This document shows positions 1-54,081 of a stretch of DNA of 64,000 nucleotides, in pieces. The position numbers and the translations under genes are program-made. The stretch lies in assembly GCA_964494795.1 (NCBI GenBank), contig CAZBSV010000210.1:3619-67618 (forward strand), given 5' to 3'. Under the pieces are notes generated by a model, which saw nothing but the letters and a program-made list of their open reading frames with translations, ran no database searches and had not been told where the DNA came from. The stretch is from an uncultured Spirochaetales bacterium. Its GTDB lineage: Bacteria; Myxococcota_A; UBA9160; SMWR01. Every line of letters begins with the position of its first letter. Positions within the stretch are counted from its first letter, which is position 1.

Positions 1-354
1 GTTGAGCTCGGGCGTCGCACGAGGGCTCGGCTTTCCGACAAAATCCACGGCACCGAGCTCGAGCGCGCGAAACACGTCTTCTTCGCCGGTGCGCCCACTG
101 ATCACGATCACCGGAGTCGGTCGCTTGTTCATCACGACCCGCAAGAACGTGAATCCGTCCATGCGCGGCATTTCTAGATCCACCGTAATCAGATCGGGCT
201 GGAGTTCGAAGGTCTTGCGCAGCGCCTCCTCACCGTCGCGCGCAACACCGACGACTTCGACGAGCGGAGACGCGTCGAGCATTCTCGTGATCGCGTGACG
301 ACTGAACGCAGAATCGTCGATCACCAACACTCGGATCGTCGCCCGATGCATCAT
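1..354 (-). CDS. cheB: Chemotaxis methylesterase CheB, N-terminal REC part (runs off window start)
   Basis: Manual translation [19 protein letters not shown]...[12 protein letters not shown]...GAVDFVGKP (CheB-type receiver). ATG overlaps cheR TGA (ATGA). Catalytic domain lies outside the window. Confidence 0.85.
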
Positions 355-3400: not shown

Positions 3401-4518
3401 GCCCCGCTCCTCGCTTTGGCGACTCGAAGCAGCTCCTCGGCCAGGAAGTCCCGTTCCTGTTGGATTGCGGGATCGACGCGAGCCGCGAAGAGTGAGCGAC
3501 CCTCTGCGAGATCGCCCTTCATCGCCTCGAGAACGTTGCCCGCACGGACAGCCGCTGCGAACTTCTCCTGGCTGTAGAGAACGATGTCGGAGACCACGAT
3601 CCGAGCCAGGCGCTCGGCCTGTTGAATCCTCTCGTCGATGCCCGCGCCTCGCCCCGGCGCTGAACCGGAAGCCTTGGCGGCTTCGAACTTGGGAGCCGAC
3701 ACAGCGGGCCTGGCGACAGAAATCGGCGCGGCGGCCGGAGCCCTCGCCGCCACCTCCCGCTCGGGCATCAGCGTCGCGGCCCGCACGCTCACGGGATCGA
3801 CGATCGGTCGAACCCGTGGCGAGGCAACAGCTGCTTGCGCGGCGCGCGGTTGCGACGACGGAGCGACCGCGGGGAGCATCCCGAATTCTGCGAAGATCGA
3901 GTAGAGAGACCCGGGCAGATCCTGGCGCTCGACGTACGCGTCGGCTCCGTAGATCTCTTCGGGCGGACGTCGATAGCGGGTTCGATCGTGAATCGCACCC
4001 ACGAGCACGACGTGGATGTCGCGCAGGCTCTCGTTTCGCTTCACGATCTCGCAAACCTGAAAGCCAAACATCTTGGGCAGCGCGGCATCGATCACGATGG
4101 CTCGCGGCAGCAATCGCTGAATCGCGAGCATTGCCTCGACTCCGTCGTGGACCAGCGTCGGCCGAAGGCCCCATTGCATCATGGCACTGGCCGTCGCCTT
4201 GCCCTGTTCGATCTCTGGATCGGCGATCAAGACCGTCTGCTGCCGATCGGCCGCCGAGCGCTCCGGGATCGGCGGCGTCGGGCGGGACATCGGCGGCGGC
4301 AGTGACGGCGCGGGCATTCTCGGCGCTTCGGCTTGCTGCGCGGCAACCGGTCGCGTATGCGCCTCGCGAACCGCTTCCCTCGATTCTCCGACAGCCGACG
4401 GCCGACTCACCTGGAATACGGCTTCACAGCGCGAACAGCGCAGCCTCACGCCTTCGGGCCGCAGGCGGTCGGATTCCATGCGGTAGCGGGCCGCGCATCC
4501 GGGGCATGCGACGATCAT
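3397..4518 (-). CDS. Zinc-ribbon (MJ0042-like) + atypical receiver + C-terminal helical domain protein
   Basis: MIVACPGC...RLRCSRC (two CxxC), Pro/Ala linker, REC-like core (AIVIDAALPKMFG), C-terminal AERLARIVVSDIVLY. Confidence 0.8.
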   Translation of the reverse strand: MIVACPGCAARYRMESDRLRPEGVRLRCSRCEAVFQVSRPSAVGESREAVREAHTRPVAAQQAEAPRMPAPSLPPPMSRPTPPIPERSAADRQQTVLIADPEIEQGKATASAMMQWGLRPTLVHDGVEAMLAIQRLLPRAIVIDAALPKMFGFQVCEIVKRNESLRDIHVVLVGAIHDRTRYRRPPEEIYGADAYVERQDLPGSLYSIFAEFGMLPAVAPSSQPRAAQAAVASPRVRPIVDPVSVRAATLMPEREVAARAPAAAPISVARPAVSAPKFEAAKASGSAPGRGAGIDERIQQAERLARIVVSDIVLYSQEKFAAAVRAGNVLEAMKGDLAEGRSLFAARVDPAIQQERDFLAEELLRVAKARSGA

Positions 4519-4584
4519 TGCGGCGCTCCGAGTCCGCGATCGATGGTTTCAATTGTCATGTCTCCCCCGTACTCGCTCACCGCT

Positions 4585-7158: not shown

Positions 7159-7649
7159 GCTGCGTTCTCGTGATCGCTCAGTACCGAGCGGTATACACTC
7201 TCGAGCAGGTGATCCAACGAGAGAACCACGATCGGCTCCAAACCGGGTCTTCGAACCACGGCCCGAGCCGTGTCGTAACCTGCTTGCATCGCGAGAAACG
7301 GCGGATCCTCCATCGACGCCGCGCCGACCTGGAGAACCTCGACCGCCGCGTCGACCACCAAGCCGACGACGAGGCCATGCGTCTCGACCACCACGATTCG
7401 CGTGCGGATCGACTGCTCCACCTTGCGCCCGTCGAGCGCTCGCCGGAGATCCACGACGGGCACCAGCGCACCGCGCAGATCGATGACACCCTCGATCAGC
7501 GCAGGCGACTTGGGAAGCGGCGTCACGCTTTGCCAGCGGACGACTTCACGCACGTTCAAGACGTCGATCGCGATCAAGCGACCTCCGACCTCGAAGCAGC
7601 CGAGAGTGACCTCGTTCTCCCCCGCAGCGATGGAAATGGCGTCAGGCAT
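7155..7649 (-). CDS. cheW: CheW adaptor
   Basis: VREVVRWQSVTPLPKSPALIEGVIDLRGALVPVVDL; start at 7649 overlaps upstream stop. Confidence 0.9.
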   Translation of the reverse strand: MPDAISIAAGENEVTLGCFEVGGRLIAIDVLNVREVVRWQSVTPLPKSPALIEGVIDLRGALVPVVDLRRALDGRKVEQSIRTRIVVVETHGLVVGLVVDAAVEVLQVGAASMEDPPFLAMQAGYDTARAVVRRPGLEPIVVLSLDHLLESVYRSVLSDHENAA

Positions 7650-8154
7650 TGCGACCCAGCACCCTGTCCAATTCGACCAACGAAATGAATTGATCCCCAA
7701 CGCTGCAGAGATCTTCTACTGCACCCGTATCCGATCCCTCGGCGGGCCGAATCGACTCGCTCGAAACCCGCAAGACCTCTTTTATGGCGTCGACGAGCAC
7801 ACCCACCACCTCGTCATCGCCGGTCTTGACCACGATGATCCGGGTCCGACGGGACGCCTCGACTCGCCCGAGGCCGAGCCGGATACGCAGATCGATCAAT
7901 TCGATCATTTCGCCGCGCAGCGAGATGACGCCGCGAACATCCTCGGGCAGCCTCGGAACCGGCGTGACGGGTCGCATCCGCACGATCTCCCGCACCCGCT
8001 CCACCGGAATCGCATACGGAGACCCCGCGAGTTCAAAACTCAGCAACTGACGGATCTCTTCGACTGAATCGTCCGGAGCACCCTGGCGCGCAGCGCTGCG
8101 CGCCAGCGAATCCCACTCGCGCGCCTCTGCGGCAGACGTGGTCGTTTCACTCAT
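7642..8154 (-). CDS. cheW: CheW adaptor
   Basis: YAIPVERVREIVR...TPVPRLP...GVISLRGEMIELIDL. Confidence 0.92.
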   Translation of the reverse strand: MSETTTSAAEAREWDSLARSAARQGAPDDSVEEIRQLLSFELAGSPYAIPVERVREIVRMRPVTPVPRLPEDVRGVISLRGEMIELIDLRIRLGLGRVEASRRTRIIVVKTGDDEVVGVLVDAIKEVLRVSSESIRPAEGSDTGAVEDLCSVGDQFISLVELDRVLGRNA

Positions 8155-10226
8155 GCGGACTCCTTCCGGCTCAGAGCGTCTTCGACCAGGCTCGAGATAT
8201 CGACGACCAAAACGGCGCCCTGATCGCCTAGCTCCGTCGCACCCGCAAAGCCGCGCAGGTTCTTGACGGGACCCTGGATCGGCTTGATGACCGTGTCCTG
8301 CTGTCCGTCCAGACGGTCGACGAGCAGCCCGATCCGCTGTTCGCCGAGGCCCACGATCACCGCGAATTGCTTATCCGTCGCCGACGACACCTCGAGCTGG
8401 AATTCCTTCGCGAGGCTTCGCAACAGGAGAGCTTCACCCCGGAGGTTCAGGATGTCGCGATTCTCGCTGTGCTGGATATCGCGGGTGTCGATCAGCAGGG
8501 TTTCGTGCACCGCATTGATCGGAATCGCAAATCGGTGTTCTCCGACTCCGACGATCAGGGATTGAATGATCGCGAGCGTGATCGGAAGCGTCATCGCAAT
8601 CGTGGTTCCGCGACCCGGAATCGACTCCACGTCCACGGCTCCGCCCAGAGCCAGCATGTTTTCACGCACCACGTCCATTCCGACGCCACGGCCGCTGGTT
8701 TCGCTGACCTGCGATTGGGTCGAGAGCCCCGGCGAGAAGATCAGATTGAGGATCTCACGATCACTCAACTCGGCCCCGCGCGAGATCAGACCGAGGGATT
8801 CAGCGCGCGCAACGAGAGCGTTGCGATCGATCCCCTTGCCATCGTCAGAGACGGAAATCACCACGTGGTTTCCGCGCTGAAACGCATTGATTTTGATGCA
8901 GCCCTGGACGTCCTTGCCCGCGGCGCGTCGCTCCTCGACGGTTTCGATCGCGTGATCGATCGCGTTTCGAACGATGTGCATCAAGGGGTCGACGAGCTCC
9001 TCGACGATCAACTTGTCGAGTTCCGTGTCCGCGCCCGAGACCTCGAGCTTCACATCCTTCTGGAGATCTCGCTTGAGCGAGCGAACCACGCGCGAGATCT
9101 TGTCGAATACCTGCCTCATCGGAACCATCCGCACTTCCAGAACCGCGGACTGGATGCCCTTGAGCTTTCGATCGAGTGATTTGTGGATCTTCGACAGCTC
9201 AGCTCCGATCTGGGCATTCTTGGGTTGCGCGACGAGCCGGGCCGCAATCTCGCCGATCGTCGAGCGCTGGATGACGAGTTCGCCGACGAGATTCATGAGT
9301 TCATCGAGTTTTCGAATATCGACCCGCACCGTCTCGCTGATCGAGCGGAGCGATTCGAGCTCGGATGGAGCCACGGGTAGAGACGTCGCGTCGACTTCCG
9401 ACTCGGGCTCCGACTCGGAGTCCGAGTCGGCCGAGACAACCTCGACGGCCGGCGCTCCCGCCCGCAGCGAGATCACTTCGGCATCCGGAAAATCGAGCAC
9501 GTCGCGAAGCTGTGCCATGGACAGATCCGAGGCAACGAGCAGCGAGAAGCGGATCTGGGCTTCTGGCGTATCTCCGGGAGCGGGTAGAGTCGACAACACC
9601 TCTCCGACTGCTCGAATCGAATTGGAGAGCTCAGAGAGCCCCTCGTCGAACGACATGATCGCGAACGTCGAGCTGACCAGCATGATGTGCCGGCCGCGGC
9701 GAATGCTCTCGCGCAGTCGATGTTCCTCGTATTCGGTCAGCGCTCGCAGCAGTGTGTTGTCGATCTCCAGGGACTGCAGCTCATCGCCGGCCGCAACCGC
9801 ATCCTTGGCGGAGGCCCCGATCCGCCTCGCGAGATCCTCGACCGGACCGTTGAATGCGGCGAGTGCTTCCGCGTTTCCGATGGACTCGAGCAGGCTCGCG
9901 AACGTGTGGATGGCCTCGTCGATCAACGCCACGCAAGGCGAATCGATCGACACCTTGCCGAGGCGCAGGCCGTCGAGAATGTCCTCGAGGTGGTGCGCGA
10001 GATCCTGGATCGACTCGAGCCCGAACATTCCGGCCAGGGCCTTCAGGGAGTGAGCGGAGCGAAACAGCCGGTTGACCAGGTCGGGGTCGACTTCGCCGCC
10101 CGCCGCGCGTTGATCGTCGAGATCGGCGTAGTCCTCGCGCATGCGCTCGAGGATCTCTTCCGCCTCCGATACGAACTCCTGGTCCGCTTTGCGCTCGGAA
10201 CGCGATCGGCCACCGCGAGTTGCCAT
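8151..10226 (-). CDS. cheA: Chemotaxis histidine kinase CheA
   Basis: HPt FRSAHSLKA, VRVDIRKLDELMNLVGEL, HIVRNAIDH, SGRGVGMDVV, C-terminal CheW-like P5; no fused REC. Confidence 0.96.
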   Translation of the reverse strand: MATRGGRSRSERKADQEFVSEAEEILERMREDYADLDDQRAAGGEVDPDLVNRLFRSAHSLKALAGMFGLESIQDLAHHLEDILDGLRLGKVSIDSPCVALIDEAIHTFASLLESIGNAEALAAFNGPVEDLARRIGASAKDAVAAGDELQSLEIDNTLLRALTEYEEHRLRESIRRGRHIMLVSSTFAIMSFDEGLSELSNSIRAVGEVLSTLPAPGDTPEAQIRFSLLVASDLSMAQLRDVLDFPDAEVISLRAGAPAVEVVSADSDSESEPESEVDATSLPVAPSELESLRSISETVRVDIRKLDELMNLVGELVIQRSTIGEIAARLVAQPKNAQIGAELSKIHKSLDRKLKGIQSAVLEVRMVPMRQVFDKISRVVRSLKRDLQKDVKLEVSGADTELDKLIVEELVDPLMHIVRNAIDHAIETVEERRAAGKDVQGCIKINAFQRGNHVVISVSDDGKGIDRNALVARAESLGLISRGAELSDREILNLIFSPGLSTQSQVSETSGRGVGMDVVRENMLALGGAVDVESIPGRGTTIAMTLPITLAIIQSLIVGVGEHRFAIPINAVHETLLIDTRDIQHSENRDILNLRGEALLLRSLAKEFQLEVSSATDKQFAVIVGLGEQRIGLLVDRLDGQQDTVIKPIQGPVKNLRGFAGATELGDQGAVLVVDISSLVEDALSRKESA

Positions 10227-10232
10227 GAGCGT

Positions 10233-10619
10233 CTACCCGCTTTTCACAGCGCGGGCGAGCAGATCCTCCACGATCTCCCGCAGATGCTCGGGTTCGAAGG
10301 GCTTGACGAGGTACGCGTCGGCTCCCAATTCGACGCCCTTCTCGCGATCGCGCTCGGAACTCTCGGTCGACACGATGACCAGTGGAATCGACCGATAGGC
10401 GTCGTTGCTCTTCACGAACGACACGAGTTCGAGCCCGTTGATGTCGGGCATGTTGATGTCGGTGATGATCAGGTCGAACGATTCACGCGGGAGACGGCGG
10501 AGTGCCTCGAAACCGCTCGACGCCTCCGTGATCTTCACCGGAGGTTCGAGGCCCTCGAGCGCAGAATTCAGTAGCGCCCGCATCGTAGGAGAATCTTCGA
10601 CGATCAGAACTCGCTGCAC
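10233..10619 (-). CDS. cheY: Single-domain response regulator CheY-like
   Basis: IVEDS, ITDINMP, VST, VKPF canonical receiver residues. Confidence 0.9.
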   Translation of the reverse strand: MQRVLIVEDSPTMRALLNSALEGLEPPVKITEASSGFEALRRLPRESFDLIITDINMPDINGLELVSFVKSNDAYRSIPLVIVSTESSERDREKGVELGADAYLVKPFEPEHLREIVEDLLARAVKSG

Positions 10620-10751
10620 GGACCCCTCCGCTGGCAGTCGTCGCTAAAACGGCCGATCCCCGTATCGGACTTTCAGCAGCTTTCTTGAGGCAGTCTCGAT
10701 ACTTCGGGCGATTTCTCGCGCATCGCGCCGGCGCCGCGGGAGCGGGAAATC

Positions 10752-12695
10752 TCAGGAGGCGGCAGGATCTCCGAGCTGGGCGAGGGCGCGCTTGAGCAGC
10801 GCGCGTTCGAGCGCCAACCCGGCCTCATGCAGGGCGATCTCGATCACCGAGGTGTCGCCGATTGGCTCACCGCCTGGCAGGTTGTCGGCGTACAGCAGGG
10901 CCACCACCCGGCCGCCGCTCACGATCGGCGCCACATAGGCCTCGGCGGGCTCGCGGTCGCCGATTCGCTTCGAGAGCGCCCGGTCGCCCTCGCCGATGAC
11001 CGGCGAGCAGAGCGAGCTGCGCGCCTCGAGCACGCGTCTGAACCACTCGATATCCGCCGCGCGCGTTTCGATTTCGCGGAAACCGGCGTCATCGGGTCCG
11101 CCCCCACGGGGCAAGCCACGCTGCGCGATTCCGAGTGCGACGTCGTCGCGCACCATGAACATCGCGACCCGCGAAAAACTCTCCGACGCAAATTCCAGCA
11201 CCAGTTTCAGCGCGTCGCCTTGATTGCCGGGGTCGCGGATGCGCTCGCTCACCGAGCGCAGGGTTCGCAGGCTCTCGGAACCGGTGGCGCCACTCGCGGA
11301 ATCGCGCAAGTTGGCGCGACTCGATTGGCCCGACGGCTGCGCGGGCTGCTTGAGCCACGCCGCAACCTCGGTCCGAAAGCGCTTGGCTTCGTCCACCAGC
11401 TTCGACCAGGCCTTTCGGTTCGCGAGATAGGCGGGATCGGGTCCGCTGAGGATCGCGTCGGCGGCATCGATGCCTTCCTCCGACTGCGCGTTCTCGTACC
11501 GCGCAACCAACACGGGCATCGAAGGTGCGAGAAGCTTGAGCCGCCGGATGAAGGCCGCAAGATTTTCGACGCCGCTCACCCTCCCGCGCGCGAGATCGAT
11601 CGAAACGAGAACGATCGGGATCTCTCCGCGGCGCAGGTACTGTCGGATTCGCGCGATTCCACTCTCGGCGTTCTGGAAGATGTGCACGCGGGGAAAGAAC
11701 TCGGCGAGGTTCAACTTCTGCCACTCGAGGGTGCTGAGGTTCGGATCGATCGCGATCAGGCATGCGGCCGCAACCGCGGATCGGGAATTCGCCCGCCCGC
11801 TCGGGCTCAGCGAGGCCGGGCCGGCCGCCTTCGCTGGGAACTTCTTGACGGGCTCCGCGTCGGGCCAAGCGACGGACTCCGCGTCGGGCCCCGCGACGGA
11901 CTCCGCTTCGGGCCCCGCGACGGACTCCGCTTCGCGCTCCAATTCGGGAGCCTCTCTGCGGCTGGCCGCGAGCGCCAACACGTCCGCGGGAGCCCGCGAC
12001 GACGCGTCCGAATCCCGCTCGTCCGGCGCGGCTTCGGGCTCCACGGCTTCGACCGGCGCGGCAGCTTCGACCCCACCCGGCGCGGCAGCGAAGCCCCGAG
12101 ATCCCGCCGGATCCACTTCCCCGCTGAACAAGATCGGCGCGTCATCGGGTTCCGAGATCGGCGCGGCATCTGCGGAGAACTTGACCCCGGGCGCTCGATC
12201 GCCGCAGCTGCTCTCGTCGCTGAGGCGTGTCGCCTCCATCGTCAGATACTGCGCGTTGATTCCCGTCGGAATCAGGATTTCGAGATCGCGCGCCTCGATC
12301 TGGTCGCTCACTTCGAAACTGAACTCTCCAGTCACCCAGGAGAAGATCCGGAATACCGAGCGCTCGACCTGCTCGCGGCGGGCTGAATCGAGGCTTTCCG
12401 CGGTGAGCGACGTGCACTCGGGGATGACTTGATCGAGCGACGCGGCGCGCGAGTTCGAGAGTTCTACGGCGCGGTCGAATTCCTCGGCGCGAATGAAGTT
12501 GGATCCGACGAGCAGCGAGCGGAGATCCTCGGGTTCACCCTTGACGTAAGCGGCACGGACCAGGCCGTCGCGAAAGACGATCCGGCCTTCGCCCAGCTCG
12601 GAGTGGATCCGCAGCAGACCCGACTTCCGAGACAGACTGACGATTTGCAGAATGTCTCCGAGGCCCAGATCCTCGAGACTTCCGACCAAGCTCAT
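10752..12695 (-). CDS. DUF4388 (PATAN-like) domain protein with C-terminal GAF-like domain
   Basis: MSLVGSLEDLGLGDILQIVSLSRKSGLLRI N-terminus; acidic repeat linker; AYVAPIVSGGRVVALLYAD GAF-like C-terminus. Confidence 0.75.
   Translation of the reverse strand: MSLVGSLEDLGLGDILQIVSLSRKSGLLRIHSELGEGRIVFRDGLVRAAYVKGEPEDLRSLLVGSNFIRAEEFDRAVELSNSRAASLDQVIPECTSLTAESLDSARREQVERSVFRIFSWVTGEFSFEVSDQIEARDLEILIPTGINAQYLTMEATRLSDESSCGDRAPGVKFSADAAPISEPDDAPILFSGEVDPAGSRGFAAAPGGVEAAAPVEAVEPEAAPDERDSDASSRAPADVLALAASRREAPELEREAESVAGPEAESVAGPDAESVAWPDAEPVKKFPAKAAGPASLSPSGRANSRSAVAAACLIAIDPNLSTLEWQKLNLAEFFPRVHIFQNAESGIARIRQYLRRGEIPIVLVSIDLARGRVSGVENLAAFIRRLKLLAPSMPVLVARYENAQSEEGIDAADAILSGPDPAYLANRKAWSKLVDEAKRFRTEVAAWLKQPAQPSGQSSRANLRDSASGATGSESLRTLRSVSERIRDPGNQGDALKLVLEFASESFSRVAMFMVRDDVALGIAQRGLPRGGGPDDAGFREIETRAADIEWFRRVLEARSSLCSPVIGEGDRALSKRIGDREPAEAYVAPIVSGGRVVALLYADNLPGGEPIGDTSVIEIALHEAGLALERALLKRALAQLGDPAAS
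11847..11934. repeat. In-frame 24-bp tandem repeat x3.7 (EAESVAGP-like units)
   Basis: GACGGRCTCCGCKTCGGGCCMMGC units at 11847, 11871, 11895 and partial at 11919. Confidence 0.9.
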
Positions 12696-22988: not shown

Positions 22989-23062
22989 TCCCCGGTCGTC
23001 TAACGGCAGGACAGCAGGCTCTGAACCTGTCAATGGAGGTTCGAATCCTCCCCGGGGATCCA
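22989..23062 (+). tRNA. tRNA-Gln (CTG)
   Basis: Acceptor TCCCCGG/CCGGGGA, anticodon arm GCAGG-CTCTGAA-CCTGT, T-loop TTCGAAT, encoded CCA. Confidence 0.95.
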
Positions 23063-28358: not shown

Positions 28359-28434
28359 GCTCCCATCGTCTAGCGGTCCAGGACGGGGCCCTCTCAAGGC
28401 TCAAACACGGGTTCGATTCCCGTTGGGAGCGCCA
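28359..28434 (+). tRNA. tRNA-Glu (CTC)
   Basis: Acceptor GCTCCCA/TGGGAGC, anticodon loop CTCTCAA, GGTTCGATTCC, GCCA end. Confidence 0.95.
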
Positions 28435-29133: not shown

Positions 29134-29188
29134 GGGAAGCTTCGCTTCCCTTGCGGCGCAGCTCGAACCCGTTCCGGGTTCGAGCTGC
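29134..29188. terminator. Two hairpins between convergent genes (possible bidirectional terminator)
   Basis: GGGAAGC-TTC-GCTTCCC and perfect 14-bp GCAGCTCGAACCCG-TTC-CGGGTTCGAGCTGC; no clear U-tract. Confidence 0.5.
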
Positions 29189-34975: not shown

Positions 34976-36826
34976 GTGTCAGGGAAAGTGCCAGATAAAT
35001 CAGTCCGACAGATCGAGAGCGTGGCGATCCGGTTTACCGGCGATTCCGGTGACGGAATGCAGCTCACCGGCACCAAGTTCACCGAGGCTACAGCGCTCGC
35101 GGGCAACGAACTCTCGACGCTTCCCGACTACCCCGCAGAGATTCGCGCCCCTGCCGGAACACTCGCGGGCGTATCCGGTTTCCAGATCCACTTTTCGTCA
35201 AAGACCGTCCGGACGCCAGCCGACCATCCCGACGTGCTGGTCGCCTTCAATCCGGCAGCCTTGCGCGCGAACGTCGATGACGTGCGACCGGGGGGCATGG
35301 TCATCATCAACAGCGAAAGCTTCACGACCAAAAACCTGAAGCGAGCGGGTTACTCCGAAGACCCCTGCCCGGCTCTGCGAGACCGCTTCTCGCTGGTCGA
35401 AATCCCGCTCACCCGCCTCAATCGCGAGGCGCTCAAGGATCTCGACCTCAGCGCGCGCGATGCCGACCGCTGCAAGAATTTCTTCGCGCTCGGCCTGATG
35501 TATTGGCTCTACAACCGACCGATGGAACCGACCGAGCGCTGGCTCGCAAATCGCTTCAAGGGAAATGCGCTCGAGGCGAACCTTCGCGTGCTGCACGCTG
35601 GTCACGCGTTCGGCGAAACGACGGAACTCCTGCCCGTTTCCTACATCGTTCCCAGGGCGAAGATCCAGCCGGGCGTGTACCGAAACATCACGGGCAATAC
35701 GGCCCTGGCCTGGGGGATCGTCGCCGCGGGCGTGCAGATGCAGACGGATGTCTTCCTCGGCGCCTATCCGATCACACCCGCGAGCGATGTGCTTCACGAA
35801 GTCGCGCGCTACCGACACTTCGGAGTCAAGACCTTCCAGGCCGAGGATGAAATCGCGGCGATCTGCGCTGCAATCGGCGCGTCATTTGCGGGCAAACTCG
35901 GCGTCACGACCACGAGCGGGCCCGGCTTCGTGCTGAAACAAGAGGCCCTCGGGCTCGCGGTCATGGCCGAACTTCCCCTCGTGGTCATCGACATTCAGCG
36001 CGCGGGACCCTCTACGGGAATGCCGACGAAAATCGAGCAGGCCGATCTGCTGCTCGCCCTCTACGGCCGCAATTCCGACAGCCCCATGCCCGTGATCGCC
36101 CCGATGTCGCCGGGCGATTGCTTCCACACGGTCCTGGAGGCATTCGCGTGGGCGGTCAAATACATGACGCCGGTCGTCGTGCTCTCGAACGGCCACCTCG
36201 CGAACAGTTCCGAACCCTGGCGGATCCCGGACGTCGCCACGCTCCCGCGACCCCAAGTCGAATACTGGACGGATCCGAAGACTTTTCGGCCGTATGCGCG
36301 CAACCCCGAAACGCTCGCTCGCCCCTGGGCGATCCCCGGCACACCGAATCTCGAACACCGGATCGGTGGACTCTCCAAGGAAGACCAAAGCGGAAACGTC
36401 TCCTACGACCCCGAAAACAACGAGCGGATGGTTCGACTTCGCTCGGAAAAGATCGCGCGGATCGCAGCCGAGATTCCGCCCGTGGAGATCAACGGGCCCG
36501 CGAGCGGAGAGTTGCTCATCGTGGGTTGGGGGGGAACCCACGGTGCGATTTCGTCCGCCGTCGAAGCGGCGCGGATCGACGGGCAGACCGTCTCGAGCAT
36601 CCACCTGCGTCACCTCAATCCGTTTCCCGCCAACCTCGAATCGGTGCTGCGCCGCTTCAACAAGATCCTCGTGCCCGAGTTGAATCAGGGGCAGCTGGTT
36701 CGACTGCTGCGCGCGGAATTCCTGGTGCCCGCGATTGCGATGAACAAGGTTCGCGGTCAGCCATTCCTCATCGAGGAGCTGCGCGCTCGGATCAACGAGT
36801 TGCTGAGCGAGGAGAAGACACCGTGA
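34976..36826 (+). CDS. korA: 2-oxoacid:ferredoxin oxidoreductase alpha subunit (gamma-alpha fused)
   Basis: GDSGDGMQL, YPITPAS, QAEDEIAA, TTTSGPG, QRAGPSTGMPT; substrate specificity not determinable. Confidence 0.9.
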   Translation: MSGKVPDKSVRQIESVAIRFTGDSGDGMQLTGTKFTEATALAGNELSTLPDYPAEIRAPAGTLAGVSGFQIHFSSKTVRTPADHPDVLVAFNPAALRANVDDVRPGGMVIINSESFTTKNLKRAGYSEDPCPALRDRFSLVEIPLTRLNREALKDLDLSARDADRCKNFFALGLMYWLYNRPMEPTERWLANRFKGNALEANLRVLHAGHAFGETTELLPVSYIVPRAKIQPGVYRNITGNTALAWGIVAAGVQMQTDVFLGAYPITPASDVLHEVARYRHFGVKTFQAEDEIAAICAAIGASFAGKLGVTTTSGPGFVLKQEALGLAVMAELPLVVIDIQRAGPSTGMPTKIEQADLLLALYGRNSDSPMPVIAPMSPGDCFHTVLEAFAWAVKYMTPVVVLSNGHLANSSEPWRIPDVATLPRPQVEYWTDPKTFRPYARNPETLARPWAIPGTPNLEHRIGGLSKEDQSGNVSYDPENNERMVRLRSEKIARIAAEIPPVEINGPASGELLIVGWGGTHGAISSAVEAARIDGQTVSSIHLRHLNPFPANLESVLRRFNKILVPELNQGQLVRLLRAEFLVPAIAMNKVRGQPFLIEELRARINELLSEEKTP

Positions 36827-37854
36827 CCGCTGAATTCAGCAAACTTACGAGCAAGGATTTCACCACCGATCAGGACATTCGATGGTGTCCGGGTTGCGGC
36901 GATTACTCGGTGCTCGCCAACGTGCAGCGCGTGATGCCCGAACTGGGAGTTCCGCGGGAAAACTTCGTGTTCGTCTCGGGCATCGGCTGTTCGAGTCGAT
37001 TCCCCTACTACATGAACACCTACGGATTCCACACCATTCACGGCCGGGCGCCCGCTTTCGCGACGGGCATCAAGGCCAGTCGACCCGAACTCTCGGTCTG
37101 GGTGGTGACGGGCGATGGGGACGGGCTCTCGATCGGAGGCAACCATCTTCTGCACACGATTCGGCGAAACGTCGACATCCAGATCCTGCTGTTCAACAAC
37201 CGCGTCTATGGCCTGACAAAGGGGCAGTACTCGCCGACCTCGAGACTCGGGATGCGGACCCACTCGACGCCCGACGGTTCGATCGATCATCCGATCGATC
37301 CGCTGGCGTTTGCGTTGGGGGCCGGTGCGACATTCGTCGCGCGCGCGGTCGACGTCGATGGCGCACACCTGCAGCGGCTCTTGCGGCGCGCCCACGATCA
37401 CCCCGGAACGGCGCTGATCGAGATCCTGCAAAATTGCCCGGTCTACAACGACAACGAGTGGCTCGAAGTCGAAGACCGCAAGAGCCGGGTGCATGCCGCT
37501 CTCGTGCTCGAGGATGGCCAGCCGCTCGTGTTCGGACCCGAGGATCAACCCCGAGGCATCCGATTCCACGGCGGCATAGCGACGGTGGTCGAGCTGGAGA
37601 AGGGCCAGGATCCGATTGCGGCCGGCGTGACGGTCCACAACGAGCGCTACCAGACACCCGCCTACGCGTTCGCGCTCGCGAGCCTGAAGCGACCGGAGTT
37701 CCCGCTGCCGATCGGTGTATTTCGCGCGGTCGAAACGCCGACCTATGACGCGATGTTGCAAGGCCAGGTGGCGGCAGCCGTGGTCAAACGCGGCGTCGGC
37801 TCGCTCGACGAACTGCTCCACTCCGGCGACATCTGGACCGTCGATCCGAGTTAG
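36823..37854 (+). CDS. korB: 2-oxoacid:ferredoxin oxidoreductase beta subunit
   Basis: WCPGCGD, SGIGCS, HGRA, GDGD TPP motif, NNRVYGLTKGQ; GTG overlaps alpha stop. Confidence 0.92.
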   Translation: MTAEFSKLTSKDFTTDQDIRWCPGCGDYSVLANVQRVMPELGVPRENFVFVSGIGCSSRFPYYMNTYGFHTIHGRAPAFATGIKASRPELSVWVVTGDGDGLSIGGNHLLHTIRRNVDIQILLFNNRVYGLTKGQYSPTSRLGMRTHSTPDGSIDHPIDPLAFALGAGATFVARAVDVDGAHLQRLLRRAHDHPGTALIEILQNCPVYNDNEWLEVEDRKSRVHAALVLEDGQPLVFGPEDQPRGIRFHGGIATVVELEKGQDPIAAGVTVHNERYQTPAYAFALASLKRPEFPLPIGVFRAVETPTYDAMLQGQVAAAVVKRGVGSLDELLHSGDIWTVDPS

Positions 37855-38963
37855 GCGCGCCGACGCCCCGAAGCGCCCAGCACCACGCGTCGGAATTCCT
37901 CGATCACGGGGAGCCGATCCAACCAGGGCGAAGCATCCGCTCGTGAGGGGTCGATCTCGCTGGCTCGGCCCGCGAAACCCTCGGGAATCTGACTCACGAG
38001 CACGGGACGCCGGCCGGAATCGTCGACGAAGTGATATTCGAATCCGGGGACGCACAGCTTCTCATCGGCGATCACATCGATCGCGCGGACGCCATAGCTC
38101 GTCAAGTTGGCGGCCGTCGTCTGCGGCGGGATGATCCAGGCGCTGCGGGGCGCTGCGATGAAGAGGAATTGGATCTTTCGATTCTTCGACAGGATCCGAA
38201 AGCGCTTCAGATCGCCGCCGTAAAGCTTGCTGTTCGAAGCGCTCACCTCGACCACACCGCGTTCGAAATCGGGTTCGAAACCGCGAACGAATCGGAGTGA
38301 CGTCGGATCGTTCTTGCGCGTGAAGCGAGCGATGCTCCGGCCACTGTTGATGAGGTTGCGCGGGTTCGATCGGGCGCGAATGCGCGGCTCGAGGAAGTCC
38401 CGATAGGGCTCGATCCGATCGTCGTGCCCCCGGCGCAGCACGAGCGCGAGCGCGTCGTCGTCGTACGGAATCCGACGCTGCCTCCGGCTCAATTCCTCGA
38501 GTGCGGTCTGGATCTCCAGCGGAAGATCCGTGGTTTCTTCGACGCTCTGCTCGATCTCTTCGCCATCGACGATGGCCGTTCTCATCTCGCCCTTGCCGAT
38601 CCAATTCTCGCCGTCCGACCGAATGAAGTGGGAGGCGGATCGCCAAACCAGGGAAATGTCTTTGTAGAAGATGCGAGGATGGATCTCGATCGCTCGCGTC
38701 CGCGAATTCGGCTGCACGACGTACGCCACGAAGAAACGGATGTCGGGATTCTGGCGAACGTGGCTCAGGTAGTAGGTCGTATCGAAAAGATCAAGCTTGA
38801 ATTTCGGCGCGTAGCCCCGAGCGATCAGGCGCTCGGGGTTCGCGCGCGCTTCACCCACACACCGAATCGGCGCGCCGGAATCGATCGAGCGCTGAAACTC
38901 CCGCGCAATCTGCCGTGGTGCGAGCGGAGATGGGCTTACGCTCGGGTGGATTCCGGCAATCAT
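37851..38963 (-). CDS. Hypothetical protein (370 aa)
   Basis: Globular-looking composition with aromatic residues; co-oriented downstream of FDH alpha. Confidence 0.7.
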   Translation of the reverse strand: MIAGIHPSVSPSPLAPRQIAREFQRSIDSGAPIRCVGEARANPERLIARGYAPKFKLDLFDTTYYLSHVRQNPDIRFFVAYVVQPNSRTRAIEIHPRIFYKDISLVWRSASHFIRSDGENWIGKGEMRTAIVDGEEIEQSVEETTDLPLEIQTALEELSRRQRRIPYDDDALALVLRRGHDDRIEPYRDFLEPRIRARSNPRNLINSGRSIARFTRKNDPTSLRFVRGFEPDFERGVVEVSASNSKLYGGDLKRFRILSKNRKIQFLFIAAPRSAWIIPPQTTAANLTSYGVRAIDVIADEKLCVPGFEYHFVDDSGRRPVLVSQIPEGFAGRASEIDPSRADASPWLDRLPVIEEFRRVVLGASGRRRA

Positions 38964-50867: not shown

Positions 50868-52256
50868 TCAGAGATCCGCCGCGGAGCAGACGCAGTTTCG
50901 ACCGAGCGACTTGGCGCGATACATCGCCTTGTCGGCCACGTCGAGCAGGCGGGTCCGGTCGCGCGCGTGCTGCGGGAACGTCGCGACACCGATGCTGATG
51001 CTCAGACGAAACGGCGTGTCGCGCCCCGCTTCGAACGACGTTTCCTCTACCAGTCGGCGGATCCTCTCGGCAATCAAGAGAGCGACATCATGTTGTGTAT
51101 CTGGAAGCAGTATCGTGAATTCGTCTCCGCCATAACGCGCCAGGGTGTCGACCTGGCGAATGCAGGTCGAAAGCACCTCGCTGAGCCTGCGGAGAGCGCG
51201 CGAACCGACGAGATGCCCGTACTGGTCGTTGACCAGTTTGAAGCGATCGAGATCGAGGAACAAGACGGTCAACGCGTTTCCGTAACGATCCGCGCGGTGG
51301 ATCTCGCGGTCCGTGGCCTGCAGCAGGTAGCGCGCGTTGTAGACCTCGGTAACGTCGTCGATGAAGGCTCGCTCCTTCGCCTCGTTGTATCGCTCGGCGT
51401 TGCGAAGAGCGAGCTCAGCGTGGCCCGCGATCAGCTTCGCGCGATCGAACTCCGTGGGATCGAAGGGCCGGCCGTCTTCGAACAACCACAAGACACCGAT
51501 CTCGCGATCGCTTCCGCGCATCGGAATTGCGGCGACGGTCCCGCACTCGATTCCGACGCCGCGAAGCGTGTCGTGCAGCGGTCCGTCGCTGAGGATCTCG
51601 ATGCGCGAGATGGCGTCGATGTCGATCGATTTGTCGCCCACGAGCGATTCGCGAAGCGCGCGCGTCTCCAATTCCGAAAACCCGCGAAACGCGATGCCGT
51701 CGGTCGGAATCGAGCCGCGGTGAAACAGCGCGAGGCCCCGCTGGCGCGGAAGGTGTTGAAGCAACAGATCCAGCACCGTCGTATACACCTCGGCGGGCTC
51801 GAGGCAGCGCAGCAGGCTGCGGCAGGACTCCAGCGTGAGCAGGTCTTGGCGCAGCTTCACATTTTCGTCGAGCAGGCGTCGCTGCGCGAGGATTCGATCC
51901 ACGACGAGCGCGAGTTCGTCTTGGTTGATGGGCTTGGTGAGATAGTCGGCGGCCCCCATTCGCAGTGCGCCCACCGCGCTCTCGACCGTCGCATTGCCGG
52001 TCAACAGCATGAAATCGGTCGACGGATGCGTGCGCCGGATCTCTTCGAGGAGTTCGACCCCAGACAGACCGGGCATCGTCAGATCGGAAACGATCAGATC
52101 CGCGGGCTCCCGCCGCAGGGCCTCGAGTGCGGCCTGGGACGAGTCGCAGCACTCGACGCGAGCGCGGTTGCCAATCGCGTCGCGCACCATCTCACGGATC
52201 AGACGATCATCGTCGACGACGACGACGCGGGCGGTCACGTCGCGCCCAGCGGCCAT
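50868..52256 (-). CDS. REC-GAF-GGDEF diguanylate cyclase
   Basis: VVVDDD...IVSDLTMP...KP; GAF-like middle; RQVD I-site and ARYGGDEF active site. Confidence 0.92.
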   Translation of the reverse strand: MAAGRDVTARVVVVDDDRLIREMVRDAIGNRARVECCDSSQAALEALRREPADLIVSDLTMPGLSGVELLEEIRRTHPSTDFMLLTGNATVESAVGALRMGAADYLTKPINQDELALVVDRILAQRRLLDENVKLRQDLLTLESCRSLLRCLEPAEVYTTVLDLLLQHLPRQRGLALFHRGSIPTDGIAFRGFSELETRALRESLVGDKSIDIDAISRIEILSDGPLHDTLRGVGIECGTVAAIPMRGSDREIGVLWLFEDGRPFDPTEFDRAKLIAGHAELALRNAERYNEAKERAFIDDVTEVYNARYLLQATDREIHRADRYGNALTVLFLDLDRFKLVNDQYGHLVGSRALRRLSEVLSTCIRQVDTLARYGGDEFTILLPDTQHDVALLIAERIRRLVEETSFEAGRDTPFRLSISIGVATFPQHARDRTRLLDVADKAMYRAKSLGRNCVCSAADL

Positions 52257-52580
52257 TCTACTCTCCTCCGCTAGTTAGAATCGGCGGCCGGAGTTGCGCG
52301 CTTGAGAAAGAGCCATCTGTGGGCGAAAAGGCCCGCCCGTGATCGCTCGGCGGCACAACCACCCTCCAGCGCCGACCCGAATCCTCGCTTCGCAAGATCG
52401 CGCACGCTCGAACGATCCCTAAATCGCGCACTCCACCCTTCCCATCCTCATTCCCGCTGGTTTCGGAATCCACCCACACCCAAGAACTCGATCCTCCGGG
52501 AATCGCCGATCCAATCTCCGATGCAACGTTAGCGGGTGCCATCTACTCCATCAGACAGCGGACACACTACTGGAACCCGA

Positions 52581-52788
52581 CGCCGAGCCCGGTCGGCCAT
52601 CGCGCTCAAACACCATGTCGCGCGATGGCCGACCGGGCTCGGCGCCGCGCTGCTGAGGTTCGGATGGCTGCGGCCAATTGGCAATTGTGGCTTTCCGCCG
52701 CGCCAGCGTGCGCGCCGCAAGGAGCGGGAGACGAGAGAGCATCGCGCGACGTGGGGTTCGAGCGCGATGCTCTCTCGTCTCCTGCTCC
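52581..52788. other. Twin long-hairpin element with complementary loops (candidate ncRNA or REPIN/MITE-like element)
   Basis: 25-bp perfect IR 52581-52605/52620-52644; 27-bp IR 52721-52747/52762-52788 with one G-T; both loops 14 nt. Confidence 0.8.
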
Positions 52789-52875
52789 GTAAGATCAGTC
52801 GTGCGGAATGGCCCGTGTAGGGTCGGTTTCGACCCCAACGGATGCCTAGCGGCCGAAGACGTTCGCAGTCGCCAC

Positions 52876-54081
52876 CTAGGGTCGCTTCAGGCGAAGTCCC
52901 TGGAGCCGGATGAAGCCCGTCGCATCGCGCTGGTCGTAGGTGTCCGCCGGCCCCGCATCCTCGAACGAAGACTGTGCGGCGTCGTAGAGAGACACCGGAG
53001 AGCGTCTGCCGGTAATCCGCACGCTGCCCTTGTAGATCGACACCCGAACTTCGCCCGTCACATTCTCTTGTGACGCCTCCATCAGCGCTCGTAGAGTCTT
53101 CATCTCCGGCGCGTACCAGAATCCGTTGTAGATCAACTCTGCGTAACGCGGCGAGAGCCGGTCTCGCTCGTGCATCACGTCGCGATCGAGCGTGATGGAT
53201 TCCATCGCGCGGTGGGCGGCGTGCAGAACCGTGCCGCCGGGCGTCTCGTACACACCGCGCGATCTGAGGCCGACGAAGCGGTTCTCGACCATGTCGACGC
53301 GGCCCACGCCGTGCTCTCCTGCGAGCGCGTTGAGCCGGCGCAGCAATTGGGCGGGCGATAGCGCCTCGCCGTCGATCGATACCGGCGTGCCTTGCTCGAA
53401 ACCGATCGTGATCTCTGAAGCCACGTCGGGCGCCATGTCGGGAGATTTCGTCATGATGAACATGGATTCGTCCGGCGCGTGCCACGGGTCCTCGAGAACG
53501 CCGCCTTCGTACGAAATGTGCATCAGGTTGCGGTCCATCGAATAGGGCTTTTCGAGCGTCGCCGTCACCGGGATTGCGTACTTGTTGCAATACGCGAAGC
53601 AGTCGGATCGAGATCGGATGTCCCACTCGCGCCACGGCGCGATGATATGGAGCTCGGGAGCCAGCGCGCGAAAAGTCAGTTCGAAGCGAACCTGATCGTT
53701 GCCCTTTCCAGTCGCTCCGTGTGCGACGGCGTCGCAGCCGGTTTCGCGGGCAACCTCCGCCTGATGCTTCGCGATCAGCGGCCGCGCCAGCGCGGTGCCG
53801 AGCAGGTAGCTGCCCTCGTAGACGGCCGCGCCTCGAATCGCGGGAAACACGAACTCGCGCACAAACTCTTCGCGCAGATCGCGGATCACACAGTCGACGG
53901 CCCCCGTCGCCTTGGCTTTTTCGGGAAGTCCGCTGAGTTCTTCTTCTTGACCGACATCCGCCGTGAAGGCGACGACCTCGCAGCCGTAACTGTGGATCAG
54001 CCAGTGAAGAATCACGGAGGTATCCAAACCACCGCTGTAGGCGAGGCAGACTCGCTTCACTTGACGCTTTGCGGCCATCAC
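52876..54081 (-). CDS. argG: Argininosuccinate synthase
   Basis: [38 protein letters not shown]. Confidence 0.96.

What the first reader, a model, noticed from the sequence alone, without database searches (positions are those of the whole stretch)
52581..52835. Twin long hairpins with mutually complementary loops: candidate new structured RNA or mobile DNA element
Seen: hairpin A has a 25-bp perfect stem and loop TCAAACACCATGTC; hairpin B has a 27-bp stem (one G-T on the + strand) and loop GACGTGGGGTTCGA. Both loops are 14 nt and can pair at 12/14 positions including one G-U. Both stems share the inner CATCGCGC/GCGCGATG, so the 30-nt cores are inverted copies, but the outer 17-19 bp are unrelated and still paired. 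The 76-nt spacer has CAATTG-G-CAATTG almost exactly at its centre and can form a third stem (52647-52655 with 52704-52713). A small GGGTCG-GTTT-CGACCC hairpin follows. It lies between argG and the cyclase with no credible ORF. Inference: (a) kissing-loop or two-state switch RNA, (b) REPIN or IS200/605-derived non-autonomous element, or (c) cruciform recombination site. I do not recognise it as a known family.
Basis: partly seen in the sequence, partly recalled or inferred. Interest (0 to 1): 0.75.

Follow-up and report, generated by a model that had tools for sequence, protein, structure and literature searches.

The report
Conserved twin palindromic hairpin repeat
The two long hairpins are real and belong to an undescribed family of about 74-base palindromic repeats with a conserved 14-base loop, found between genes in one group of uncultured Myxococcota; it most resembles the REP/BIME intergenic repeats of other bacteria rather than a kissing-loop RNA switch.

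Summary
Hairpins A (52576-52649) and B (52719-52790) are the only such structures in the 64 kb (fold z about -10). No Rfam family, paper, phage or plasmid matches.

They are not unique to this genome. I found 16 homologous hairpins, some of them orthologues, in metagenomes and Myxococcota MAGs. Twins lie after argG (window, L122) and after typA (L032, L124, L132/133); singles and decayed copies occur elsewhere.

- **Architecture:** the loop GACATGGGGTTCGA and its GCGC closing pairs are nearly invariant. The 24-30 bp stems covary: 93.8% of cells are paired, against about 45% when the pairing is slid, and 16 of 24 pairs change on both sides.
- **Constraint:** between orthologues the hairpins are far more conserved (97% and 88%) than codon third positions (77% and 60%). 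The spacer drifts neutrally.
- **Turnover:** related genomes show empty sites, a fusion of the two cores, and a remnant of the leader plus outer arm.
- **Loop complementarity:** it follows from the two cores being inverted copies. Loop differences are not compensated, and single hairpins keep the same loop.

Best reading: a new REP/BIME-like extragenic palindrome family, spread and lost as DNA and retained under selection in 3' intergenic regions. It fails the strict REPIN, MITE, terminator and IS200/605 tests. The function and any partner protein are unknown.

The parts
52576..52649 (.). Hairpin A ('A-type'). Arms are 52578-52605 / 52620-52647. The loop 52606-52619 reads TCAAACACCATGTC on + and GACATGGTGTTTGA on -. 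The outer module CGCGGCGCCGAG (read from the 3' arm) is shared with the A hairpins at the typA loci.
   Evidence: Model R1 scores it 81.6 bits. It aligns with the A hairpins of L122, L032, L124 and L132.
52719..52790 (.). Hairpin B ('B-type'). Arms are 52721-52747 / 52762-52788, with one G-T on the + strand. The loop 52748-52761 reads GACGTGGGGTTCGA. The outer module GGAGCRGGAGRCG is conserved between the argG and typA contexts.
   Evidence: R1 scores it 82.1 bits. It is 88% identical to its L122 orthologue, against 60% at argG third positions.
52598..52627 (.). Core A: CATCGCGC, the 14-nt loop, then GCGCGATG. This is the family's most conserved part.
52740..52769. Core B, an inverted copy of core A (27/30). 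The centre-to-centre distance is 142 bp here and 142-148 bp across the five twins.
52686..52720 (+). 'B leader': about 35 nt on the spacer side of hairpin B. It is homologous between the argG-context and typA-context twins, so it belongs to the B unit.
   Evidence: B-proximal spacer z = 4.4-5.1 in three of the four cross-context pairs (window-L124 is not significant). It is retained in the deletion remnant of L152/L154.
52650..52685 (.). A-proximal part of the spacer, which contains the start of CAATTG-G-CAATTG (52675-52687). It is locus-specific and not conserved in other twins.
   Evidence: not significant across contexts; spacer stem poorly supported. At the typA locus the equivalent segment persists in L134, which has no hairpins.
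52876..54081 (-). argG (argininosuccinate synthase), the upstream gene. Its stop codon is 85 nt from the base of hairpin B.
   Evidence: The distance is also about 85 nt in L122.
50868..52256 (-). REC-GAF-GGDEF response-regulator diguanylate cyclase, the downstream gene. Its start codon is about 320 nt from hairpin A.
52256..52410 (-). Remnant of the 3' end of a BNR-repeat gene that lies between argG and the GGDEF gene in L126, and after the twin in L122. It is context only and not part of the element.
   Evidence: tblastn E = 7e-12 to residues 373-424 of the L126 protein, and blastn 77% over 145 nt.
52820..52835 (.). Small hairpin GGGTCG-GTTT-CGACCC between the argG stop codon and hairpin B. 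It is not a family member and not conserved in L122. It may be argG's own 3' hairpin.
   Evidence: region z = -1.9.

Best explanation
**What it is.** The twin is one locus of an undescribed, low-copy, dispersed family of extragenic palindromic repeats. So far it is seen only in one clade of uncultured Myxococcota. Each unit is a palindrome of about 74 nt with four parts:
- a conserved outer stem module, which comes in an A type and a B type;
- a variable middle stem;
- a conserved inner stem, TCGCGC/GCGCGA;
- an almost invariant, asymmetric 14-nt centre, GACATGGGGTTCGA.

An A unit and a B unit (B carries a leader of about 35 nt) sit head-to-head with centres 142-148 bp apart. The pair therefore reads the same from either side.

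**How it most likely works.**
- *Shown:* units are gained, lost, fused and truncated as DNA. Where a unit is retained, its sequence and pairing are held well above the neutral rate.
- *Inferred:* the units spread as non-autonomous DNA, like REP/BIME elements.
- *Inferred:* the arms are kept perfectly Watson-Crick by arm-to-arm templated correction of the quasi-palindrome, together with selection.
- *Inferred:* the host keeps the units in 3' intergenic regions because the very stable hairpins act on transcripts from either direction, as a symmetric 3'-end barrier, terminator or insulator.
- *Inferred:* the invariant loop is the recognition site of a protein not yet identified, either a mobilising enzyme or an RNA- or ssDNA-binding factor.

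The mutual complementarity of the two loops is a by-product of the inverted arrangement. It is not the mechanism.
For: **A family exists**
- There are 16 hairpins with this loop inside long stems, some of them orthologous copies: the window (2), L122 (2), L032 (2), L124 (2), L132 (2; L133 is the same locus), L024 (2), L120 (2), L069/L153 (1) and L121 (1).

**The stems covary**
- 93.8% of cells are paired, against 39-55% when the pairing is slid. 16 of 24 pairs change on both sides. 0 of 500 shuffles reach the observed values.
- The loop columns are 9-14 of 14 identical.

**The element sits in different genomic contexts, which indicates dispersal**
- After argG: window, L122.
- After typA: L032, L124, L132/133, L120, L153.
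- After other genes: L024 (twice), L120a.

**The A and B outer modules and the B leader are shared between contexts**.

**Presence/absence and decay**
- The argG site is empty in L125, L126, L127 and L128-131, which keep the same synteny.
- The typA site is empty in L134/135 and L136.
- L120b is an A/B core fusion.
- L152/L154 keep only the leader plus 14 nt of the outer arm, yet are 99.8% identical to L153, whose contig continues into hairpin B.

**Constraint between orthologues**
- typA pair: third positions 77%, spacer 78%, hairpin A 91%, hairpin B 97%. The two B changes form one compensatory pair (P = 1e-6).
- argG pair: third positions 60%, flanks 40-51%, hairpin B 88% (P = 3e-7), hairpin A 73%.

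**Position**
- All copies are intergenic.
- The singles that can be oriented lie 38-93 nt after a stop codon.
Against: - Copy number looks low: one locus in this 64 kb and none in about 140 kb of related loci. REP families usually have tens to hundreds of copies.
- No transposase, RAYT, integrase or reverse transcriptase is among the 38 window ORFs scanned.
- No target-site duplication or sharp element boundary could be defined.
- Part of the typA 'spacer' survives in a genome without hairpins (L134). The twin may therefore not move as one unit, and the constant 142-148 bp spacing at two loci remains unexplained.
- No U-tract follows the stems. Empty orthologous sites carry no substitute hairpin, so a terminator role is not demonstrated.
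- There are no transcription data.
- Several supporting loci come from metagenome assemblies, which palindromes can mislead. L069/L153 is chimeric, and L120b could be an assembly collapse.
Confidence: 0.45

Rival explanations
1. A host-encoded cis-acting RNA hairpin (or a pair of them) in 3' UTRs, not mobile DNA. The conserved 14-nt loop is bound by an RNA-binding protein or ribonuclease. The 25-30 bp duplex is an RNase III-type substrate that sets mRNA 3' ends and stability, or releases a 3'-UTR-derived small RNA.
For: - The loop and stems are strongly conserved relative to neutral sites, and the stems covary.
- Copies are always intergenic and lie 38-93 nt downstream of stop codons.
- In well-assembled hairpins, arm mismatches are G-T five times and A-C once when read on the GAC-loop strand. 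This is the direction expected if that strand is the RNA, but n is small (P about 0.1).
Against: - The stems are almost entirely Watson-Crick and read equally well on both strands. They are far longer than known protein-binding or terminator hairpins.
- Homologous units sit after unrelated genes, in both orientations relative to the neighbouring gene.
- The presence/absence, fusion and truncation products are typical of unstable palindromic DNA.
- No Rfam family matches.
- Empty orthologous sites have no replacement structure.
Confidence: 0.2
2. One reading: one RNA carrying both hairpins acts through an intramolecular kissing-loop or a two-state switch between the two complementary loops.
For: The loops can pair at 12-14 of 14 positions in all five twins. 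The centre-to-centre spacing is constant at 142-148 nt.
Against: - Complementarity is automatic for inverted copies of one sequence.
- Differences between the two loops of a twin are not compensated. The window has two mismatches on each strand, and L032/L124 have a G-U on one strand and a mismatch on the other.
- Single hairpins with no partner keep the same loop (L024a, L024b, L120a).
- The spacer evolves at the neutral rate and has no conserved fold.
- At typA the twin lies between convergent genes, so no single transcript need carry both hairpins.
Confidence: 0.05
3. One reading: a double-stranded or cruciform DNA site. Each 30-bp core (an 8-bp inverted repeat around an asymmetric 14-bp centre) is a recombinase or DNA-binding-protein site. 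The inverted pair then defines an invertible or bridged segment of about 112 bp, or a structural or topological site such as a gyrase or nucleoid-protein site.
For: - The core layout resembles recombinase core sites: inverted arms around an asymmetric centre.
- Two cores lie in inverted orientation at a fixed 142-148 bp.
- L120b is a product of recombination between the two cores.
- Conservation is equal on both strands.
Against: - No recombinase or integrase is among the 38 window ORFs or in the called genes of the related loci.
- The spacer has the same orientation in all three typA orthologues and in both argG orthologues.
- The typA twin has no downstream gene to switch.
- Covariation of 24-30 bp stems is not needed for a 30-bp protein site.
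Confidence: 0.12
4. A true REPIN mobilised by a RAYT (Y1/HUH transposase), or a derivative of IS200/IS605 ends.
For: It is an inverted doublet of short palindromic cores with a less conserved spacer. The copies are dispersed and extragenic, and the element persists through vertical descent. These match the general description of REPINs in PMC3337134.
Against: - The doublet does not fold as one hairpin; each core has its own long local stem.
- The 5' flanks read GC[AG][AG]GGAGC, with no conserved GTAG.
- No RAYT is in the window.
- The apparent copy number is low.
- IS200/605 ends carry hairpins in the same orientation, not inverted.
Confidence: 0.08

Closest known systems
REP sequences and BIMEs (bacterial interspersed mosaic elements) of Enterobacteria and Pseudomonas
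   Same: Both are dispersed extragenic palindromes in 3' intergenic regions. Units are arranged in alternating (inverted) orientation with a linker. Distribution among relatives is presence/absence. The proposed roles are also shared: an mRNA 3'-end hairpin, a terminator or insulator, or a protein-binding site.
   Different: REP units are about 20-40 nt imperfect palindromes with conserved stems, a 5' GTAG and a tiny loop, and they occur in hundreds of copies. Here the units are about 74 nt with 24-30 bp covarying stems. The most conserved part is a 14-nt apical loop, there is no GTAG, and the apparent copy number is low.
REPIN-RAYT systems (Bertels and Rainey; PMC3337134, PMC3116915)
   Same: Both have two short palindromic cores in inverted orientation, separated by a less conserved spacer of tens of nucleotides. 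Both persist by vertical inheritance over long periods.
   Different: A REPIN folds as one long hairpin, with one REP pairing with the other. Here each core is the tip of its own long hairpin, and the outer arms of A and B are not complementary. No RAYT was found in the sequence available.
Correia elements (CREE/NEMIS) and other MITEs that form long hairpins in mRNA
   Same: Both are short non-autonomous intergenic repeats whose transcripts would form long duplexes suitable for RNase III. Both are inserted next to housekeeping genes and are variably present between strains.
   Different: MITEs have terminal inverted repeats and target-site duplications, and their copies are alike along the whole length. 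Here no target-site duplication or sharp ends were found, and the stems differ between copies while staying paired.
Hairpins with a conserved loop and variable stem that HUH enzymes recognise (rolling-circle origins of geminiviruses, circoviruses and plasmids; IS91 and IS200/605 ends)
   Same: The architecture matches: an invariant loop sequence presented on a GC-rich stem whose sequence varies but stays paired. This is a 'works-like' lead for what might read the loop.
   Different: There is no sequence similarity to known nick sites, no Rep or HUH gene nearby, and no viral or plasmid homologue. The stems here are much longer. This resemblance comes from general knowledge and was not tested.
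Intrinsic (bidirectional) transcription terminators
   Same: Both are GC-rich hairpins shortly after stop codons. At typA the twin lies between convergent genes, and the head-to-head layout is symmetric.
   Different: There is no U-tract. The stems are two to four times longer than terminator stems. A 14-nt conserved loop is not a terminator feature.

Membership tests
Any Rfam 15 family | Score at or above the family's gathering threshold | tested here: not met
   At gathering thresholds the whole window yields only two tRNAs. A permissive scan of 52200-53000 gives only generic long-hairpin miRNA models at 35-39 bits, against thresholds of 79-168.
REPIN | [quoted passage not shown] | tested here: met
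   The 30-nt cores are inverted, 112 nt apart and 27/30 identical. The same layout occurs in L122, L032, L124 and L132.
REPIN | The doublet as a whole folds into one near-perfect hairpin, with its two ends complementary (PMC3337134) | tested here: not met
   The MFE, centroid and consensus folds all give two separate local hairpins. The outer arms of A and B are both G-rich on the same strand and are not complementary.
REPIN | Tens to hundreds of copies per genome | tested here: inconclusive
   There is one locus in 64 kb and none in about 140 kb of related loci. Two unselected extra copies were found in about 120 kb of element-bearing loci. No complete genome was available, and the genome-collection scan was truncated.
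REPIN / REP | An associated RAYT (Y1/HUH transposase) gene flanked by the repeats | tested here: inconclusive
   None is among the 38 window ORFs or in the called genes of the related loci. The rest of the genome was not seen.
REP (classical) | A conserved 5' GTAG tetranucleotide next to a short imperfect palindrome | tested here: not met
   The flanks read GC[AG][AG]GGAGC. GTAG appears in one copy only, L122.
MITE (for example Correia) | Terminal inverted repeats with a target-site duplication and sharp ends when compared with empty sites | tested here: inconclusive
   Filled and empty sites were compared at argG and typA. No target-site duplication or clean boundary was found, and the flanks are too diverged. 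Short direct repeats near hairpin B (CTCGC[G]CAA) were seen by eye only.
IS200/IS605-derived element (PATE) | Subterminal hairpins at the left and right ends on the same strand, plus TnpA (Y1) | tested here: not met
   The two hairpins are in inverted orientation. No Y1 transposase was found in the window.
Intrinsic terminator | A GC-rich stem-loop immediately followed by a U-tract | tested here: not met
   The scan of 52100-53000 finds no terminator-like sites on either strand.
Invertible DNA switch (inverton) | Inverted repeats flanking a segment found in both orientations, with a cognate recombinase | tested here: not met
   The spacer has the same orientation in all orthologues. No recombinase gene was seen. 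Read-level inversion was not testable.
tRNA / tmRNA-derived element | Recognisable tRNA-like fold | tested here: not met
   ARAGORN finds nothing in 52000-53200. The GGTTCGAG resemblance to a T-loop is short and is not closed by a pairing stem.

The most novel reading that the evidence does not exclude
The invariant 14-nt loop, presented on a self-correcting long stem, is the recognition or cleavage site of a dedicated enzyme that has not been described, for example an HUH-type or other ssDNA or RNA hairpin-specific protein. That would make this a new kind of hairpin-based mobile or regulatory system in Myxococcota, distinct from REP/RAYT. A and B units would be placed as a symmetric pair at a fixed spacing of about 145 bp. 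Alternatively, the pair is a functional RNA module in 3' UTRs whose complementary loops bridge transcripts.
Probability: 0.15. Interest if true: 0.75.

Novelty: new variant of a known kind. Interest (0 to 1): 0.5.

Why it matters
Nothing comparable is described for Myxococcota, in the literature or in Rfam. The element combines three features that are unusual together:
- a nearly invariant apical loop;
- long stems that change in sequence yet stay perfectly paired;
- conservation well above the neutral rate at orthologous sites.

It is also lost, fused and truncated in close relatives. This makes it a compact natural case for studying how long palindromes are maintained rather than destroyed in bacterial chromosomes. 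It also points to an unknown factor that reads the loop.

There is a practical consequence too. These palindromes mislead metagenome assemblers, as the fold-back chimera at a contig end shows. Covariation in a DNA palindrome can also be mistaken for evidence of a structured RNA.

Tried and rejected
**Searches that found nothing or too little**
1. Rfam at gathering and at permissive thresholds: no family.
2. Exact-protein look-ups of the window's argG and GGDEF proteins: not on record, so the source genome is not in that collection.
3. The first genome-collection pattern was too loose.
4. Viral contigs (two patterns), phages and plasmids: no members.
5. Literature searches for the loop sequence and for Myxococcota repeat families: nothing.

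**Ideas tested and dropped**
6. The spacer as a decayed palindrome, which would make the twin an inverted duplication of one unit: not significant, z about 1.
7. A conserved third stem in the spacer: poorly supported.
8. Polarity from the 'G-rich 5' arm': withdrawn, because this holds on both strands of any palindrome.
9. Polarity from the loop orientation of single hairpins relative to the upstream gene: three of three agree, which is too few.
10. A remnant of the B unit at the empty argG site of L125: p = 0.002 in one of 30 tests and degraded in L129, so it is only a possibility.
11. A substitute hairpin at empty sites: none.
12. A small ORF starting at the loop ATG/GTG: considered by eye and rejected. 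The arms covary for pairing, orthologue differences are mixed rather than synonymous, and L120a has ATA at that position.
13. A tRNA-like origin: none.

**Data quality**
14. L069 was dropped as a structural witness after it proved to be a fold-back chimera.

Full report
**1.

Reading 52300-53100 and running the repeat finder confirm the main features.
- Hairpin A has 28-nt arms with one mismatch (25 bp perfect) around TCAAACACCATGTC.
- Hairpin B has 27-nt arms with one G-T on the + strand around GACGTGGGGTTCGA.
- The two 30-nt cores are inverted copies (27/30).

The region folds far better than shuffled sequence, with z = -10.7 and -11.6 on the two strands. Each hairpin folded alone as ssDNA gives -35 to -45 kcal/mol, z about -10. 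No other inverted repeat in the 64 kb is both long and short-looped.

Both flanking genes are on the minus strand. argG stops at 52876, and a REC-GAF-GGDEF gene starts at 52256.

Rfam has no family for the element. ARAGORN finds no tRNA-like gene. No promoter- or terminator-like site is present.

**2. It is a family, not a singleton**

A degenerate core pattern scanned against GTDB genomes returned mostly chance coding matches. It also returned true homologues embedded in long hairpins in two Myxococcota MAGs. A tighter pattern found four more loci in metagenomes and none in viral contigs. A hairpin search and a covariance model (R1) added diverged copies.

- *Twin copies* lie after argG (window, L122) and after typA/BipA (L032, L124, L132/L133).
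- *Single or altered copies* are L024a, L024b, L120a, L120b, L069/L153 and L121.

In a loop-anchored alignment of 14 hairpins, the loop GACATGGGGTTCGA and its GCGC closing pairs are nearly invariant. The 24 stem pairs behave as follows:
- 93.8% of cells are paired, against 39-55% when the partner is slid.
- 16 pairs change on both sides.
- No shuffle out of 500 reaches the observed values.

A palindrome reads the same on both strands, so only the loop gives a hairpin its orientation. The twin always reads 'UC-loop, then GAC-loop' from either side. The 'mutually complementary loops' are therefore simply two inverted copies of one loop.

**3. Anatomy**

Comparing the argG and typA twins shows two hairpin types with distinct conserved outer modules.
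- A has CGCGGCGCCGAG.
- B has GGAGCRGGAGRCG.
- Both have a variable middle and a common inner stem and loop.

About 35 nt next to B, on the spacer side, are homologous between contexts: z = 4.4-5.1 in three of the four cross-context pairs. The A-proximal spacer and the outer flanks are not homologous between contexts.

The CAATTG-G-CAATTG motif and the spacer stem are specific to the window. The spacer is not a decayed palindrome. Centre-to-centre spacing is 142-143 bp at argG and 146-148 bp at typA.

**4. Evolution**

*Constraint between orthologues*

| Segment | typA pair (L032 vs L124) | argG pair (window vs L122) |
|---|---|---|
| Codon third positions | 77% | 60% |
| Spacer | 78% | 51% |
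| Outer flanks | 77% (stop to hairpin A) | 40-44% |
| Hairpin A | 91% | 73% (core intact, arm changes compensated) |
| Hairpin B | 97% (P = 1e-6) | 88% (P = 3e-7) |

The only two changes in the typA hairpin B form one compensatory pair.

*Loss and decay*
- The closest argG relatives have only about 150 nt between argG and the GGDEF gene and no model hit. These are L125 and L128-131, at 89% protein identity and with the same synteny. L126 and L127 also lack the element.
- At typA, L134/L135 lack both hairpins but keep about 40 nt of the central spacer. L136 has nothing.
- L120b joins the B 5' arm to the A 3' arm across one core. This is the product expected from recombination between the two cores.
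- L152 and L154 are two independent assemblies, 99.8% identical to L153 over 11.9 kb. They match L153 exactly up to ...GCGCAAGGAGCAGGAGGCCG and then skip the rest of hairpin B. What remains is the leader plus 14 nt of the outer arm.

*Ancestral gene order.* The window keeps the last roughly 150 nt of a BNR-repeat gene. In L122 that gene follows the twin, and in L126 it lies between argG and the GGDEF gene. The ancestral order was therefore probably argG-twin-BNR-GGDEF.

**5. What the data say about mechanism**

*Shown*
- The hairpins are homologous, dispersed and intergenic.
- They are under constraint on both pairing and sequence.
- They are repeatedly deleted or rearranged.

*Against a kissing-loop or switch RNA*
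- Loop differences within twins are not compensated. The window has two mismatches on either strand.
- Partnerless singles keep the loop.
- The spacer drifts neutrally.
- At typA the two hairpins face convergent genes.

*Against a simple terminator*
- No U-tract follows the stems.
- Empty sites carry no substitute hairpin.

*Against a classical mobile element*
- No transposase, RAYT, integrase or reverse transcriptase is among the 38 window ORFs. The window is core chromosome.
- No target-site duplication was found.
- Copy density is low.

*Against a DNA inversion switch*
- The spacer orientation is constant among orthologues.
- No recombinase gene was seen.

*RNA or DNA?* The near-absence of wobble pairs, and stems that are perfect on both strands, point to maintenance at the DNA level. 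This is my inference, drawing on the known templated correction of quasi-palindromes. A weak excess of G-T over A-C mismatches on the GAC-loop strand (5 to 1) leaves room for an RNA role.

*Working model (confidence 0.45).* I commit to a REP/BIME-like extragenic palindrome family. It spreads and decays as DNA and is retained in 3' intergenic regions because its very stable, symmetric hairpins act on transcripts. The invariant loop would be the recognition site for an unidentified protein.

**6. Comparison with known systems**

Bertels and Rainey define REPINs as inverted REP doublets that fold as one hairpin, occur in hundreds of copies, and are tied to a RAYT gene (PMC3337134).
- The inverted-doublet feature is met here.
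- The single-hairpin fold is not met.
- Copy number and the RAYT association could not be settled.
- GTAG is absent.

The element also fails the tests for a MITE, for IS200/605 ends, for an intrinsic terminator, for an inverton and for a tRNA-derived element (see the membership table). It works most like REP/BIME elements but is not a member of any named family. I therefore rate it a new variant of a known kind.

**7. Caveats**
- All homologues come from metagenomes or MAGs.
- The L069/L153 contig end is a fold-back chimera: its first 190 nt are an 87% inverted copy of the other side. It was not used for structure.
- L120b could be an assembly collapse.
- L121 has very low coverage.
- The genome-collection scan was truncated, so the taxonomic range and copy number are lower bounds.
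- There are no expression data.

Noticed in passing
window 52256-52410 (minus strand): The DNA just upstream of the GGDEF gene is a remnant of the last roughly 50 codons of a BNR/YCF48-like repeat gene. That gene is intact between argG and the GGDEF gene in L126 and follows the twin in L122. This explains part of the unusually long 619-nt intergenic region.
   Followed up: yes
L069 1-460 (= L153 11810-12153; contig JADFQO010000049.1): The contig ends in a fold-back. A typA 3' end, about 87% identical to the contig's own typA end and in inverted orientation, is joined on through hairpin B. This looks like a strain-chimeric assembly artefact caused by the palindrome.
   Followed up: yes
L152 11860-11925 and L154 8342-8407: Two independent assemblies are 99.8% identical to L153 but lack hairpin B. 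They keep its leader and the first 14 nt of its arm. An 11-nt stretch next to the junction (GCGGTTGCGA region) is the reverse complement of flank sequence in L120. This hints at a template-switch or inversion-type deletion.
   Followed up: partly
L120 9793-9854 and 6819-6898: L120b is a hybrid hairpin (B 5' arm, GAC loop, A 3' arm), consistent with deletion between the two cores. L120a is a diverged single copy after a glpD-like gene, with loop GACATAGGGTTGGA and closing pairs GGC/GCC.
   Followed up: partly
L134 11864-11904: A genome without either hairpin still conserves about 40 nt of the typA-twin spacer, about 73% identical to L124. Neighbouring intergenic DNA is unalignable. The stretch can form a 9-bp stem, and the reason for its conservation is unknown.
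   Followed up: partly
five twins: window, L122, L032, L124, L132: The loop centre-to-centre distance is 142-148 bp at two unrelated loci, although the A-proximal spacer is not homologous between them. This is about 14 helical turns. The constant spacing is unexplained.
   Followed up: no
window 52501-52526: A short tandem repeat, AATCGCCGATCC x 2.2, lies between hairpin A and the BNR remnant.
   Followed up: no
window 9398-9430 and 29158-29188: Two other perfect 14-15 bp hairpins with 3-nt loops (ccgactcgggctccg-ACT and gcagctcgaacccg-TTC). They are unrelated to the family by sequence.
   Followed up: no
window 52606-52619 and 52748-52761, and all family loops: The loop contains the palindrome CATG, so an ATG (GTG in window B) sits in the loop on both strands. 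Two of the three variable loop positions would be start-codon-preserving or synonymous in one frame. I judged a small ORF unlikely, because the arms covary for pairing and L120a has ATA.
   Followed up: partly
window 36757-38963 (minus-strand ORFs): Two long ORFs (432 and 370 aa) have no Pfam match. They lie in a stretch of about 2.2 kb where the GC3-based gene call found no convincing gene.
   Followed up: no
window 351-12695: A chemotaxis-type cluster: CheR, a HEAT-repeat protein, an MCP, CheA and a DUF4388 protein. The rest of the window is housekeeping: glyA fused to rpiB, fabF, fabD, gltX, recO, sucC, mdh, icd, aspS, and argB/argF/argG. tRNA genes lie at 22989-23059 and 28359-28431.
   Followed up: partly
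L125 7227-7247 and L129 1825-1845: The 'empty' argG site contains GCGCTCGCCGAGCAGGAGG, which resembles the end of the B leader plus the outer arm. It may be a remnant of a lost B unit, but the statistics are weak (p = 0.002 in one of 30 comparisons).
   Followed up: partly
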